Of a stretch of 16,180 nucleotides of DNA, positions 12,001 through 16,180 are shown piece by piece. Source of the stretch: Candidatus Woesearchaeota archaeon (GTDB lineage Archaea; Nanobdellota; Nanobdellia; Woesearchaeales; CAZJJJ01); NCBI GenBank assembly GCA_046538795.1, contig JBKHIF010000029.1, positions 1-16,180 of the forward strand. Reading direction: 5' to 3'. A program made the position numbers. Positions within the stretch are counted from its first letter, which is position 1; the number at the start of each line of letters is the position of its first letter.

Positions 12001-15000
12001 CTATCAATATAATACCAAGACAGGATAATGATAACCTGGATCTTCAATGGGATATGAGCCAGGCATCAGAAGATGATCTTTCAACCGCAGAACTTATGCT
12101 TAAAGAAGAGACAAAAAAAATAGTAGATGGTAAAGAAAAAGAACCTCCAAAGCCTCAGGAAATAAACACTGAAGGAGAAAATATAGAGACTAAAGACGGA
12201 GAAAAAGATTACATGATCGAACAGCTCAACAGGACACCATGAATATTACAATATCTATAATATCATTCCCACAACAAAATTTCCCCAGATACAAGTCACG
12301 ATAAATGCCACAAAAAAACTCGGGATGAATGGGATTCCTGTTTTTATCAATATTTTCTGTACCTTGTCCTGTTTGTAGAATTCTTTGAGTTTTCGTATGT
12401 GTTTTTCTTCAACACCAAGTGTTCTTGGGCCGCAAATGAACTTACCATCAATAACAATGTCCTTTACTATCCAGTCTCCTTCTGTAAGCTCTTTTGGAAG
12501 GACTTTTTTGTACATGCAGGATTCCTCAACAGCCTTTATAGAGACCCACGCAAAATATGTAAGCAATATGAAAATACCCGCAACAGCAAGAACTATTCTT
12601 ATGAAAATAATCTGGACTGCAAAAGCTGCGACCAGACATATTGTAGAAATTGCATAGATTATGTGTCTGATTCGTGTCATGAGTTTTCCTGAAAGCTTTT
12701 TCTTCATGGTCTTTGCAAATTCTTTCCTATGGATCATGCCTACTATGATACTCCAAAAAATCGCATATATCGCACCCACTATAAGAAGGTTTATCCAAAA
12801 TGCAATCAGGAATGGAAATCCTGCAAAAAAAGGATTAAACCAATCATTAAGAAAAGCAGGGAATGTGGCCATAAGAGCTCCCATGGCAATCAAAAGTTTT
12901 GAATCTCCGCCTCCCCACTGTCCTGTATAAAACATCAGATAAGCAAGTCCGAACAATATTCCAAAACCTAAAAGGCCCCAGAGGAAATAAAGCCATTCTC
13001 CTGTTACAACTGAATGAAGAAATCTTAGTCCAAGCCCTGCAAAAACCATGCCATAACTTATCCAGTCAGGAACCTCTCTTCTTTGTATGTCTGTTATCGA
13101 ACCGACAAGAAGACCAATAAAAGTTACACCGAATATTGCAAAATCAATCATAACAATCAAAAGCATAGCTAATAATATTTATAAATTTCGTTAAATTACT
13201 AAAAAACATGCTTGAACGCTTCAGGATATTCAAACCGGCAATACCAAGAGAAAAAAAAGAAAATACAAAACATCTTGCAGTAAGCCTTGCTTCCACAGGT
13301 TTTCTTAAAGAAAAAGAAAAAGCGTCTGAATCATTCAGGAAAAGAGAACATTTCATAAAAGAGCTCATTGATTATCAGCTAAGAAAAAATATAACCATAC
13401 TCACAATCTATATCTTAAGAAAAAAACCAACAGACATATCAGATGAAGAAAAGATAATAAGGCATGAAAATGTTGAAGCCATAGCGCGTCTTTTTGAAAA
13501 TCTTTCATCAGATAAAATGATAACTGAAAATAACATAAGAATATTTGTTCTTGGAAAATGGTATGATCTTTCGGGAAAGACAGTCAATTCCATAAAAGAT
13601 TCTCTTGAAAAGACAGAAGACTACGACAGGCATTTCCTCAATTTCTGCATAAATTATGACGGCAATGATGAGATTACTGATTCTGCAAAGATACTTGCAA
13701 GAAAAGTAAAATTTGAAAAGATAAATGTTGATGACATAACATCTGAAAGTATAAAGGAAAACCTCTATTCATCATATTTCATCCCTCCTGAGAAGATGAT
13801 AATTGCTTCAAGAGAACAAAAGATTGATTCATTTCTGCTCTGGGATACTGCTCATGCAGAGATAATATTCCTTGACAGGAACTGGGATGAGATAAGTATA
13901 AGAGATATCGAAAAGATTGATTAGAAATACAGACAATTAGATTTATATAGGGATGCTTAATTTTTCTTCTGATGATATCAAGAGACTCATTAGATAATCT
14001 TGTAAAAGAAATTTTTCCAGATGACATCATATCTGAATTTTCAATAGACTGGATACTAGGTCACTCTGAAGCAACAGAAGAATCCATGAAAGAAATCTAT
14101 GATTTTCTAAAAGAAAACGGAGCAAGTGATAAGAAAATTGCATCACAAGCCTATGTTCTTGGATCTGATCCAGAAGATATTAGGACAAAATACAATCAAC
14201 TGCTGAAACTTGGATTGAATAAAAAGAAAATTGCGTCACAGGCACATCTTCTTACAAGAGATTTTAGTATTATTAGACGAAATTATCAGGAATTATTGTC
14301 ATTAAAACTGACTAAAGAAAAGATAGTTTCACAACCTCAATTGCTTGCGATGAATCCTAATACAATAAAATTCAATCATCAATATTTATCATCGCTTGGC
14401 ATAAGCAATGAAAGGATATCAGCAAACATACAGCTTTTGTCCATGAATCACGAAACAATAGAAAATAATTATAACAGATTGATAAATCTCGGATTAAAGG
14501 AAAACAGAATAGCATCACAACCAAATCTTCTGGGAAAAAATCAGTATTCTGTTGAAAGAAATCACAGGTATCTTATTGATCTTGGACTAAAAAAAGAAAA
14601 AATTTCAGTTCACCCTCATCTACTTGCAATGAATAAGGATACTCTTGATAGAAATTATGAACATCTGCTCAAGATGGGTTTAAGAAAAGAATCTCTTTTA
14701 ACACACCCTAATCTGCTTACAATAGATCCGGCAACAATTGAAGAGAAATGCAAAAGACTTCTTGACATGGGACTAAAAAAAGAAAGCATATTATCACAGC
14801 CGCAGATTCTCGGGATGAGAACTGAAACTTTAGAGAGAAATTATGAATTTCTTTGCAATTTAGGCATAAAGAAAGAAAAACTGCAAAGATCAGTTGCCAT
14901 GCTTGCAAGAAATCCACAAACTATCAAAAAGAATTATCAAAATCATATAGGACTTCTAAGAAAAACACATGATGACAGAGAATCAGGCCGCGAGATTTTA

Positions 15001-16180
15001 CTTAACCAGCCGCAGCTTCTAAGCATTCCTAAAGAAACTATGGACGCAAACGTGCAGTATATGTCTCATCTTGGAATTGAGTACAGGAATCCATTGCTTC
15101 TTGGAACAAATCCCAAGCTCAAGAGAAAAAAGATGGCCTGGATGCTAAGAGAATTGTATGATTACAGAGACCTTGATAAAGAGCAAAAAAGAGAAGCGAT
15201 TAATGGATTGTATGAACTTGTAAGAAAAAAACCTCAAATTCTCAAAAGATCGATAAATTATATGGAACAAAATATTGATAAGTTGAAAAAATATAAAGAA
15301 AAAAGCTCTAATACCTAAGTTCTTTAAATTCAACCTTTCCGGATTCAACCAGTTGTTTTATCCTCTTTTGCTTTTCACTCAGTTTTGAACTTCCTGTTTT
15401 TATCTCAATTATCGCAATCTTTTCATCTTCAAAAGAAATGCCGTCAATAGGATCTCCTATAAACTTGAACCTCTCTTTTGTGTAAGGGAAATCTTTCAAA
15501 AATGGAACAAATTCTTCCCATGCCTTGCCATGCCTTACTTCGGTTGATTTTTTTGATGAACCAATATCTTTTAGTTTCTGCCTCAAAGAAAAGTTGCTCT
15601 TTATGAGATATATTATTAAAAATATCAAAAAAAAAAGCAGGATTGTCATATAGAGAATTATCTTTGCTTCAGTTTCCATGATAATAAACAAATCAAAATA
15701 TTATATAAATATATTCTAATAAATATAATCTCAAGAATTACCTGAAATTCCATTAATGTATTCAATAATTGCAGAATTAAACTTCTCTTGTGACGCCAAT
15801 GCTTTTTTCTCCAGATCACGAGCATAAATAGAATCTATCCCTATATCACATTCTGCACATAATGAATTTTCTATTTCATATATCCTAAGTTTAGAATTAT
15901 CATTATATATAGAACCTATTTTTACCATGAAATCAATACCACTGAACTTCATCTCATGATATGAAAAAACCATCATGCGAGGAGATTCCCTGAATGGATG
16001 ATTCCCTGAAAAACCAAGGTGTTGTTCCCAAAGTTCCATTATCTTTTCTGCAATTTCAATATCAAGTTCATTTAGTTTCATATTTTACCTCATCTGGCAG
16101 CAAATCATCTCTTTGATATCGCATCACAAAACATCTTAATCAAAAATCAAAATAATTTATTTATAAATTTTGTTTTTAAT

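What a model noticed while it worked through the whole genome (the two positions that open the first line are those of the whole stretch)
13972..15318. An mTERF-repeat protein with ten near-perfect 31-residue repeats in an archaeon
g01385 (448 aa) is built from about ten tandem 31-residue three-helix repeats of nearly constant sequence and folds with very high confidence into an mTERF-type solenoid. Boldest reading: it is a sequence-reading nucleic-acid-binding solenoid of the mTERF/TALE kind in which one variable polar position per repeat (Tyr, His, Gln, Gln, Asn, His, Asn, Gln in successive repeats) reads successive bases, a small prokaryotic modular DNA/RNA reader that could be re-programmed. 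New: mTERF proteins are regarded as organellar factors of eukaryotes; here a sporadic DPANN-archaeal family is seen.
Evidence so far: Pfam mTERF twice (45.3 and 47.0 bits, cut 23.1). AlphaFold2 with a 34-row alignment: mean pLDDT 95.9, pTM 0.81, all-helical with a strict 31-residue period. Foldseek PDB: top 9 hits all human MTERF1 or MTERF3 (E 5e-6 to 3e-4, prob 1.00), followed by TAL effector dHax3 (E 1e-3) and MTERF4. Repeat register printed in call 75. Only 33 clusters of relatives (E<=1e-5) among 7999 scored candidates of a 5.8-billion-protein set, 250-610 aa; those named are Nanoarchaeota, Pacearchaeota, Micrarchaeota. PF02536 found in 1 of 41 sampled Woesearchaeales (this genome only) and 0 of 14 control prokaryotes. 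Neighbours are archaeal (prepilin peptidase A24, UPP synthase, Hjc-like resolvase).
(Added by a program. Inside this text positions count along the whole contig: contig position 1 is position 1 of the stretch shown here. "Call 12" and the like, gene names such as g00115 and contig names such as C1 are that model's own, and its searches are not shown. The text may have been shortened before it was handed on; [...] marks where a part breaks off. The agent that wrote the report below was given it as the finding of a first reader that could run no searches.)

Follow-up and report, generated by a model that had tools for sequence, protein, structure and literature searches.

The report
Archaeal mTERF-fold repeat DNA-reader family
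This gene is a worn member of a scattered family in small symbiotic archaea whose proteins carry a reshuffled array of mTERF-like repeats that vary most at likely DNA-touching positions, so they probably read DNA sequence module by module, as related bacterial proteins were already shown to do.

Summary
The ORF, 31-residue period and mTERF fold are real. Prokaryotic mTERF-like readers are already published (pTERF, bacteria, PMC11417379). The family is larger than claimed: 128 of 178 proteins held share its C-terminal block, and 13 of 301 genomes of the order match.

The bold idea gains support at family level. Relatives have a fixed N-cap and C-block around a variable number of often near-identical repeats. 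Variation peaks at positions 11, 13 and 17, in recurring coupled pairs (QQ, RE, QH). Two alleles at one locus with 92% identical C-blocks share 2 of 9 such pairs. Position 13 matches MTERF1 R202, F243 and R350. Distant relatives fuse similar arrays to a PD-(D/E)XK-like fold.

Best reading: a modular, sequence-specific dsDNA binder reading 2-3 bp per repeat with several residues, zinc-finger-like rather than one base per repeat; this copy is a degenerate member. No target, binding or code is shown, and pN/pS at 11/13 is only about 1. The scan had no earlier look-alike by sequence.

The parts
13942..13949 (+). Archaeal TATA box 30 nt before the ATG; own promoter, probably a leaderless transcript. 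Lacks the ACT-N4-AGT element that many relatives carry upstream
   Evidence: Sequence. TATA at -27 to -35 in 22 of 23 family promoters examined (these were chosen partly by having one). Leaderless transcript is inference.
13972..15318 (+). Whole gene, 448 aa, net charge +17, pI 9.5, single copy in the genome
13972..14115 (+). N-terminal cap (aa 1-48), shared by the family, acidic, three helices
14116..14952 (+). Variable array: nine 31-residue three-helix repeats starting at 14116, 14209, 14302, 14395, 14488, 14581, 14674, 14767, 14860. Position 11/13 pairs QY, QH, QQ, NQ, QN, HH, HN, QQ, SA; each also occurs in 1-32 other family proteins
14953..15318 (+). Conserved C-terminal block (aa 328-448; conservation starts about aa 318), about three degenerate repeats by helix pattern
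   Evidence: HMM scores of these units are only 3.5 and -0.3 bits
15121..15153 (+). Basic helix aa 384-394; K384, R385, K387, W390, L392 invariant in 32 of 32 close relatives; candidate DNA-backbone anchor (inferred)
12255..13924 (.). Context only: divergent A24 prepilin peptidase and cis-prenyltransferase pair; the pair is conserved in 8 of 9 relatives' loci, none with the repeat gene within about 1.5 kb
15308..15691 (-). Context only: convergent Endonuc_Holl (PF10107) gene overlapping the stop by 11 nt; no recurring neighbour of the family

Best explanation
The protein is a stand-alone member of an archaeal (mostly DPANN) branch of the mTERF superfamily that binds double-stranded DNA sequence-specifically. 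Shown: a fixed N-cap and C-block enclose an exchangeable array of 31-residue repeats, and copies are gained, lost and replaced quickly. Inferred: the solenoid winds along the major groove like MTERF1; the basic C-block grips DNA; each repeat presents residues 11, 13 and 17 (helped by 10, 16, 18) to about 2-3 base pairs; Arg paired with Asp/Glu would read guanine as in zinc fingers. Reshuffling the array would then retarget the protein. It has no catalytic domain, so the likeliest action is steric: repression or a polymerase roadblock at the site. Fast turnover and patchy spread suggest a moving target such as viral, mobile or host DNA (weakest step, about 0.35). The window's copy is an old, degenerate nine-repeat array that probably still binds a long site.
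For: Fold: VIA Z 18.1-18.3 to MTERF1-DNA chains, 281 residues aligned, rmsd 6. Within-gene repeat pairs at >=80% nt identity (18 of 27 non-redundant genes, 140 pairs): amino-acid difference 0.57 at 13, 0.56 at 11, 0.47 at 17, next 0.37; pN/pS 1.05, 1.18, 0.78 against 0.33 overall. Same top three in 27 of 68 protein arrays with >=60% repeat identity. Coupling 11-13 z 8.9 and 17-18 z 8.4 against within-gene shuffles; pairs QQ in 14, RE in 11, QH in 10 of 27 genes. Arg11 has Asp/Glu13 in 36 of 41 rows against 25 of 280 otherwise (rows not independent). L045 and L049: same locus, 93.6% nt identity over 2.75 kb, nine repeats each, 2 of 9 pairs shared; paralogs L002 and L020 in one genome also differ. 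MTERF1 R202, F243, R350 fall on position 13, R162 on 10, F322 on 16 (hand count, names). Bacterial pTERF1 binds a 10-bp motif at 1.87 nM and pTERF2 another motif. Distant relatives carry similar arrays behind a domain whose best matches are PD-(D/E)XK folds, including homing endonuclease I-Bth0305I (Z 7.0, rmsd 2.9, 93 aligned).
Against: No binding, target or code is shown. pN/pS at 11 and 13 is about 1, not clearly above it, so relaxed constraint plus gene conversion fits too; positions 28 and 31 reach 0.80 and 0.68. There are 103 distinct 11/13 pairs in 321 rows, a looser vocabulary than a clean code. In the window's copy no position stands out. The sequence alignment to MTERF1 is weak (E 0.2); R202 was placed by the motif proline, not by the alignment; R251 maps to position 21, which hardly varies in the family; R387 and Y288 were not mapped. 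Foldseek TM-scores to MTERF1/3 are 0.25-0.43. Several mTERFs bind RNA. The nuclease-like matches are below Z 8 and include the RNA-related RAP module (Z 6.9), and those proteins' origin is unknown. Repeat-number differences between identical flanks (L001/L045, L003/L057/L058) may be assembly collapse.
Confidence: 0.6

Rival explanations
1. Non-specific or shape-specific nucleic-acid binder. The array grows and shrinks by slippage and gene conversion, and positions 11/13/17 vary because they are tolerant; the Arg-acid pairs are stabilising salt bridges.
For: pN/pS about 1 at 11 and 13; 103 distinct pairs; degenerate long members such as this one and L104; stops or frameshifts in several copies.
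Against: Other surface positions (5, 7, 20, 23, 27) stay at pN/pS 0.03-0.35 in the same pairs. The same few pairs recur across distant genes. The most variable site coincides with MTERF1 base contacts.
Confidence: 0.17
2. Sequence-specific RNA binder, as for MTERF3/MTERF4 on rRNA or plant mTERF15 on introns, with a PUF/PPR-like code.
For: MTERF3, MTERF4 and mitoribosomal chains are next in the fold list (Z 9-13); mTERF15 binds RNA and not DNA (PMC7909791 passage); RAP module among the matches for the fused domain.
Against: MTERF1-DNA chains score 5 Z units higher. Presence in 13 of 301 genomes and fast array turnover do not suit a conserved rRNA target. The only tested prokaryotic proteins of this fold bind dsDNA.
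Confidence: 0.14
3. Protein-binding solenoid or closed ring whose variable face recognises protein partners, possibly of the host cell.
For: Best sequence hit is the designed toroid dTor_12x31L (E 4.5e-21). Hypervariable concave faces are typical of protein-binding repeats (general knowledge).
Against: By structure the toroid fits badly (TM 0.21, rmsd 25); the hit is best explained by the shared period and capping residues. Net charge +17 and an invariant basic helix. Repeat numbers from 1 to 12 cannot keep one ring size.
Confidence: 0.07

Closest known systems
pTERF family (Hu et al. 2024, PMC11417379; abstract, pTERF section and searched passages read, supplement unreadable)
   Same: Prokaryotic, tandem three-helix mTERF-like repeats, 3-11 units, from MAGs; different arrays proposed to give different DNA motifs.
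   Different: All pTERF MAGs are Bacteria, mostly Bacillota; 'archaea' occurs 0 times in the main text. pTERF1 lacks the Pro8/Leu11/18/25 signature that this protein largely keeps. The text read names no specificity positions. Sequence kinship could not be tested.
Human MTERF1 (PDB 3MVA; PF02536)
   Same: Same three-helix motif and closest superhelix (Z 18, rmsd 6); Pro+1 position carries base-contact residues.
   Different: MTERF1 motifs are irregular and fixed. Here they are strict 31-mers in an exchangeable array, 17% identity, mostly Ala in place of Pro in relatives (229 against 51 of 321 rows).
TAL effectors, BurrH and STAR proteins
   Same: Works-like resemblance: constant caps, variable number of near-identical repeats, a few hypervariable residues, shuffled arrays.
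   Different: Three-helix 31-mer against two-helix 33-35-mer; variable residues spaced (11, 13, 17), not adjacent; superhelix differs (rmsd 14-26); no secretion signal or activation domain seen.
C2H2 zinc-finger arrays and PRDM9 (recalled, not searched)
   Same: Several reading residues per unit, Arg buttressed by an acid, about 3 bp per unit, fast array turnover.
   Different: Unrelated fold, no metal; analogy only.
Designed toroids dTor_9x31L and dTor_12x31L
   Same: 31-residue period; best PDB sequence hit.
   Different: Artificial alpha/alpha closed rings; structural fit poor (TM 0.21).

Membership tests
mTERF superfamily (PF02536) | Profile score above the gathering cut-off | tested here: met
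   79.7 bits against 23.1; short relatives 26-27 bits
mTERF superfamily (PF02536) | Tandem ~30-residue three-helix motifs forming a superhelix | tested here: met
   DSSP on the model; VIA Z 18.3, 281 aligned, rmsd 6.2
mTERF superfamily (PF02536) | Pro8 and hydrophobic 11, 18, 25 (as given in PMC11417379) | tested here: met
   Positions 12, 15, 22, 29 here: Pro 5 of 9, Leu 9 of 9, hydrophobic 9 of 9, Leu 8 of 9. Most relatives have Ala for Pro.
mTERF superfamily (PF02536) | Nucleus-encoded and organelle-targeted | tested here: not met
   Archaeal contig and neighbours, archaeal TATA promoter, relatives in archaeal genomes
mTERF superfamily (PF02536) | Nucleic-acid binding | not testable with these tools
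   Only charge and homology
pTERF (Hu et al. 2024) | Prokaryotic tandem mTERF-like repeats, 3-11 units | tested here: met
   9 units here; mostly 3-6 among 53 complete relatives
pTERF (Hu et al. 2024) | Sequence homology to pTERF1/2 | not testable with these tools
   Supplement unreadable; ESM Atlas Bacillota mTERF clusters at 0.86-0.88 are leads only
pTERF (Hu et al. 2024) | Bacterial host; mTERF Pro/Leu signature absent | tested here: not met
   Archaeal; signature present
pTERF (Hu et al. 2024) | Array-dependent DNA specificity | not testable with these tools
   Indirect only
TALE | 33-35-residue two-helix repeat with an adjacent variable diresidue | tested here: not met
   31-residue three-helix repeat; variable 11, 13, 17
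TALE | Constant scaffold, hypervariable code residues, shuffled arrays between constant caps | tested here: met
   Met for the family; not for this degenerate copy
TALE | One base per repeat | tested here: inconclusive
   Superhelix closer to MTERF1 than to TALE; coordinates not available to measure rise and twist

The most novel reading that the evidence does not exclude
DPANN archaea carry a natural programmable DNA-reading system of mTERF fold with a decodable residue code at repeat positions 11/13/17. Arrays are reshuffled between strains to retarget viral or host DNA, relatives pair such arrays with a nuclease as natural TALEN-like enzymes, and an archaeal lineage (one relative is labelled Promethearchaeota) may be the source of eukaryotic mTERFs.
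Probability: 0.35. Interest if true: 0.85.

Novelty: new variant of a known kind. Interest (0 to 1): 0.62.

Why it matters
Few modular DNA-reading codes are known. pTERF showed that prokaryotic mTERF-like arrays can be specific, but the text read names no code positions. This archaeal family points to three candidate positions and a small set of recurring pairs, and supplies natural allele pairs with near-identical scaffolds, so the code is directly testable with proteins of 250-450 aa. It would also add a fast-evolving regulator or conflict system to minimal DPANN genomes and open an archaeal route for the origin of mTERFs. For tool-building the near-perfect relatives (L045, L049, P0003) matter more than the window's copy.

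Tried and rejected
Own promoter element as target: ACT-N4-AGT-type site before BRE/TATA in 10 of 22 family promoters against 15 of 671 TATA promoters of this genome (motif taken from the family, so circular). It occurs in 253 of 301 genomes of the order (245 of 293 without the 8 unpublished genomes G112, G121, G132, G183, G206, G208, G245, G274), the family in 13 of 301, and the window's gene lacks it. Rejected.

Operon link: no neighbour recurs in more than 3 of 25 loci. Viral or plasmid origin: no relative in IMG/VR, phage records or plasmids; these pattern scans miss distant relatives. BFVD had no match at E<=0.001. No PADLOC hit and no NCBIfam hit for the query. HTH Pfam hits of P0003, P0008 and P0020 lie inside the repeats, with no stretch passing alone. 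Fusions: a search for longer forms gave 2 proteins among 7998 scored, both with an uncharacterised N-terminal extension; weak evidence. Toroid: rejected on structure. Tree of 70 C-blocks: quick method, 132 columns, mostly unresolved; no claim on transfer. Reads: no RNA holder listed; laid contigs did not cover the gene, so assembly and expression are unchecked. ESM Atlas hits were all below 0.9. No complex prediction was run.

Literature: 9 searches. mTERF+archaea (40 of 98 listed), pTERF (20 of 51), (1 of 1), mTERF with DPANN terms (15 of 1154, none listed has mTERF), giant-virus terms (15 of 967), mTERF+Asgard (2 of 2), (15 of 54); listings only. sought MTERF1 residues. No listing described an archaeal family; unlisted papers, subscription journals and the pTERF supplement were not seen. 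Not attempted: deriving a target from repeat patterns (no known code, host genomes unknown).
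Full report
Observation. The ORF at 13972-15318 (+) encodes 448 aa and is single-copy in the 1.34-Mb assembly. The 31-residue period is real: autocorrelation 0.26 against at most 0.12 in 200 shuffles. Nine repeats lie in register at aa 49-327. Their mean pairwise identity is 35% (range 19-52%), 52% in DNA, and Tandem Repeats Finder lists no array in the gene. So 'ten near-perfect repeats' is wrong. Pfam mTERF scores 79.7 bits. AlphaFold2 on a 33-row alignment (33 of 34 proteins; P0014 left out as a near-copy of P0002) gave pLDDT 95.6 and three helices per repeat. Foldseek's top nine rows are MTERF1/3 with TM 0.25-0.43. VIA-align gives Z 18.1-18.3, rmsd 6, 281 residues for MTERF1-DNA chains, 13.2 for MTERF3, and 11 or less with rmsd 14-26 for TALE-type proteins. 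The best PDB hit by sequence is a designed 31-residue toroid, which fits poorly by structure (TM 0.21, rmsd 25).

Family. The 33 clusters come from a capped search. The uncapped search found 265 representatives at 50% identity with E<=1e-3, of which 150 were listed. Of the 178 proteins then held, 128 (query included) share one C-terminal block. All 24 species-genome loci found with one conserved peptide pattern have archaeal titles: Woesearchaeota, Nanoarchaeota, Pacearchaeota, Parvarchaeota, Micrarchaeota, Aenigmatarchaeota, and three titled Methanosarcinales. One of those three begins with the same 90 residues as the copy from genome G061 of the window's own order, so that label is doubtful. 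46 more loci came from metagenomes. The profile matches 13 of 301 genomes of the order; none of 6 same-family genomes matched the query. No neighbour recurs in more than 3 of 25 loci. The A24/prenyltransferase pair upstream is conserved in 8 of 9 relatives' loci without the repeat gene nearby. The gene has its own TATA box at -30. It is a stand-alone accessory gene.

Architecture. Members have a ~50-aa N-cap, a variable array and a ~125-aa conserved block. Among 53 complete proteins with a short N-cap the array spans mostly 3-6 units (range 1-9, one 18); L059 has 12. Median repeat identity over positions 5-27 is 55% in 68 arrays; the window's copy (34%) is 6th lowest. The conserved block contains an invariant basic helix (K384, R385, K387, W390 in 32 of 32) and, by helix pattern, about three degenerate repeats.

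Is there a code? I used 27 non-redundant genes out of 32 with three or more repeats and no unknown bases. In the 18 genes with repeat pairs at >=80% nucleotide identity (140 pairs), amino acids differ in 0.57 of pairs at position 13, 0.56 at 11 and 0.47 at 17; the next values are 0.37 (28) and 0.36 (24). pN/pS is 1.05, 1.18 and 0.78 against 0.33 overall; positions 28, 31 and 10 reach 0.80, 0.68 and 0.64. At >=70% (20 genes, 251 pairs) the same three lead. The protein set agrees: 13, 11, 17, 10, 18 lead in 27 of 68 arrays (it overlaps the gene set). Positions 11-13 and 17-18 are coupled (z 8.9 and 8.4 against within-gene shuffles); couplings among 28, 30, 31 probably reflect the fixed end of the last repeat. 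Pairs recur across genes: QQ 14, RE 11, QH 10, NQ 7, RD 5, LH 5 of 27. Arg11 goes with Asp/Glu13 in 36 of 41 rows against 25 of 280; Arg17 with Asp18 in 74 of 116 against 31 of 205 (321 rows from 96 proteins, related, so p-values overstate). Against a tidy code: 103 distinct pairs occur, and pN/pS near 1 does not prove positive selection.

Array turnover. L045 and L049 are the same locus, 93.6% identical over 2.75 kb, with 92% identical C-blocks and nine repeats each; they share 2 of 9 pairs in order, and L049 has pairs absent from L045. Paralogs L002 and L020 in one genome, and L004/L007, behave alike. Copies with identical flanks but different repeat counts (L001/L045, L002/L046, L003/L057/L058, L044/L056/L061) may be assembly collapse and are not counted as evidence.

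Mapping to MTERF1. One search prints parts of two mutant MTERF1 chains. Their differences, with the entry titles (R162A, F243A, F322A), fix a numbering offset of 53. Counting by hand from each motif's proline: R202, F243 and R350 sit at Pro+1 (position 13), R162 at 10, F322 at 16, R169 at 17, R251 at 21. PMC4705650 (passages read) names R162, R202, R251, R350 and R387 as direct readout, says the prolines line the major groove, and gives 8 motifs over 22 bp. That R169 reads a base and that F243/F322 contact DNA is recalled, not read here. R387 and Y288 lay outside the printed alignments. The alignment is weak (E 0.2): R350 and F243 align directly to position 13 residues of the query, R202 only by the proline rule.

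Wider relatives. Seven aligned proteins carry similar 31-33-residue repeats, several with the same kind of words, behind a ~130-aa alpha/beta domain. In a model of P0152 (pLDDT 88.7) that domain's best matches are Bax1 (Z 7.6), Can2 (7.4), ngo0050 (7.1, rmsd 2.5), I-Bth0305I (7.0), a RAP module (6.9) and Vsr (6.7). All are under Z 8 and the origin of these proteins is unknown, so this is mild support. P0070, with a different C-terminus, is named Promethearchaeota by NCBI; unverified.

Prior art. Hu et al. 2024 (PMC11417379; abstract, pTERF section and passages read; supplement unreadable) describe pTERF: bacterial, mostly Bacillota, 3-11 repeats; pTERF1 binds a 10-bp motif at 1.87 nM, pTERF2 a different one, and reprogrammability is proposed. 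'Archaea' does not occur in the main text, and pTERF1 lacks the Pro/Leu signature that this protein keeps. PMC7909791 and PMC13126933 (passages only) treat mTERFs as eukaryotic organellar factors and record RNA-binding members. The searches listed under Tried and rejected showed no archaeal family. Earlier notes of this scan had no look-alike by sequence or place and one different DPANN repeat protein by words.

Mechanism and verdict. Most likely (0.6) a modular sequence-specific dsDNA binder; rivals are tolerant variation in a non-specific binder (0.17), an RNA reader (0.14) and a protein binder (0.07). Shown: fold class, architecture, hypervariable and coupled positions, array turnover, patchy spread. 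Inferred: DNA as ligand, the groove-facing role of 11/13/17, base preferences, a steric roadblock action and a foreign target. It works like a TALE or zinc-finger array, has the mTERF fold and profile without the organellar setting, is not a TALE, and cannot be filed under pTERF without its sequences. New variant of a known kind; interest 0.62, resting on the family more than on this copy.

Noticed in passing
L008:5944-5980, L016:5944-5980; own genome C35, C49, C80; order-wide: Conserved promoter element ACT-N4-AGT-N-R-T-W-A, 6-9 nt before BRE/TATA, in 253 of 301 genomes of the order (up to 33 copies; reversed control almost never). It precedes varied non-housekeeping genes; at L097 and L099 the sequence after it begins like a small ribbon-helix-helix protein (judged by eye), a candidate regulator. 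Possibly an undescribed order-wide regulon; no literature search made.
   Followed up: partly
P0101, P0103, P0110, P0131, P0144, P0152, P0179, P0182-P0190: mTERF-type repeat arrays of variable length fused to an N-terminal PD-(D/E)XK (Vsr/RAP-like) fold: candidate natural TALEN-like or homing enzymes. Origin unknown; contigs up to 659 kb; not found in IMG/VR.
   Followed up: partly
P0070 (with P0034, P0086, P0093, P0132, P0176): Sister subfamily with a different C-terminus; P0070 is named Promethearchaeota (Asgard) by NCBI. Bears on the origin of eukaryotic mTERFs if the bin is right.
   Followed up: partly
P0111, P0129, P0145, P0156, P0164, P0167, P0169-P0171, P0175, P0177: Another group of 450-555-aa mTERF-repeat proteins with shared N- and C-terminal regions; taxonomy not obtained.
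   Followed up: no
P0017, P0020, P0044, P0128, P0137; L006, L071: Family members with a 170-230-aa N-terminal extension containing a motif that recalls sigma-factor region 3.2 (recalled; no Pfam hit).
   Followed up: no
L005, L009, L016: Records titled Methanosarcinales; the L016 protein begins identically to the one from G061, placed in the window's own order, so the title is probably wrong.
   Followed up: partly
L014:5504-6198; G023, G061, G195 matches: Frameshifts or stops in several family copies; pseudogenes or assembly errors in repeats.
   Followed up: no
window 9925-10188 (-): His-Xaa-Ser repeat peptide HxsA3-like (NF038309, 41.7 bits, below cut-off 65), a possible RiPP precursor without obvious radical-SAM neighbours in the window.
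   Followed up: no
window 1102-9206 (-): Two large secreted-looking proteins (968 and 1718 aa) with fn3/Ig domains, one with a long Cys-rich repeat region, next to two pilin-like or small membrane ORFs.
   Followed up: no
window 10969-12242 (+): Tandem pair of HIT-domain genes.
   Followed up: no
L104:1456-2799: A second long, degenerate 447-aa member (about ten repeats) in G405, so the window's type is not unique.
   Followed up: partly
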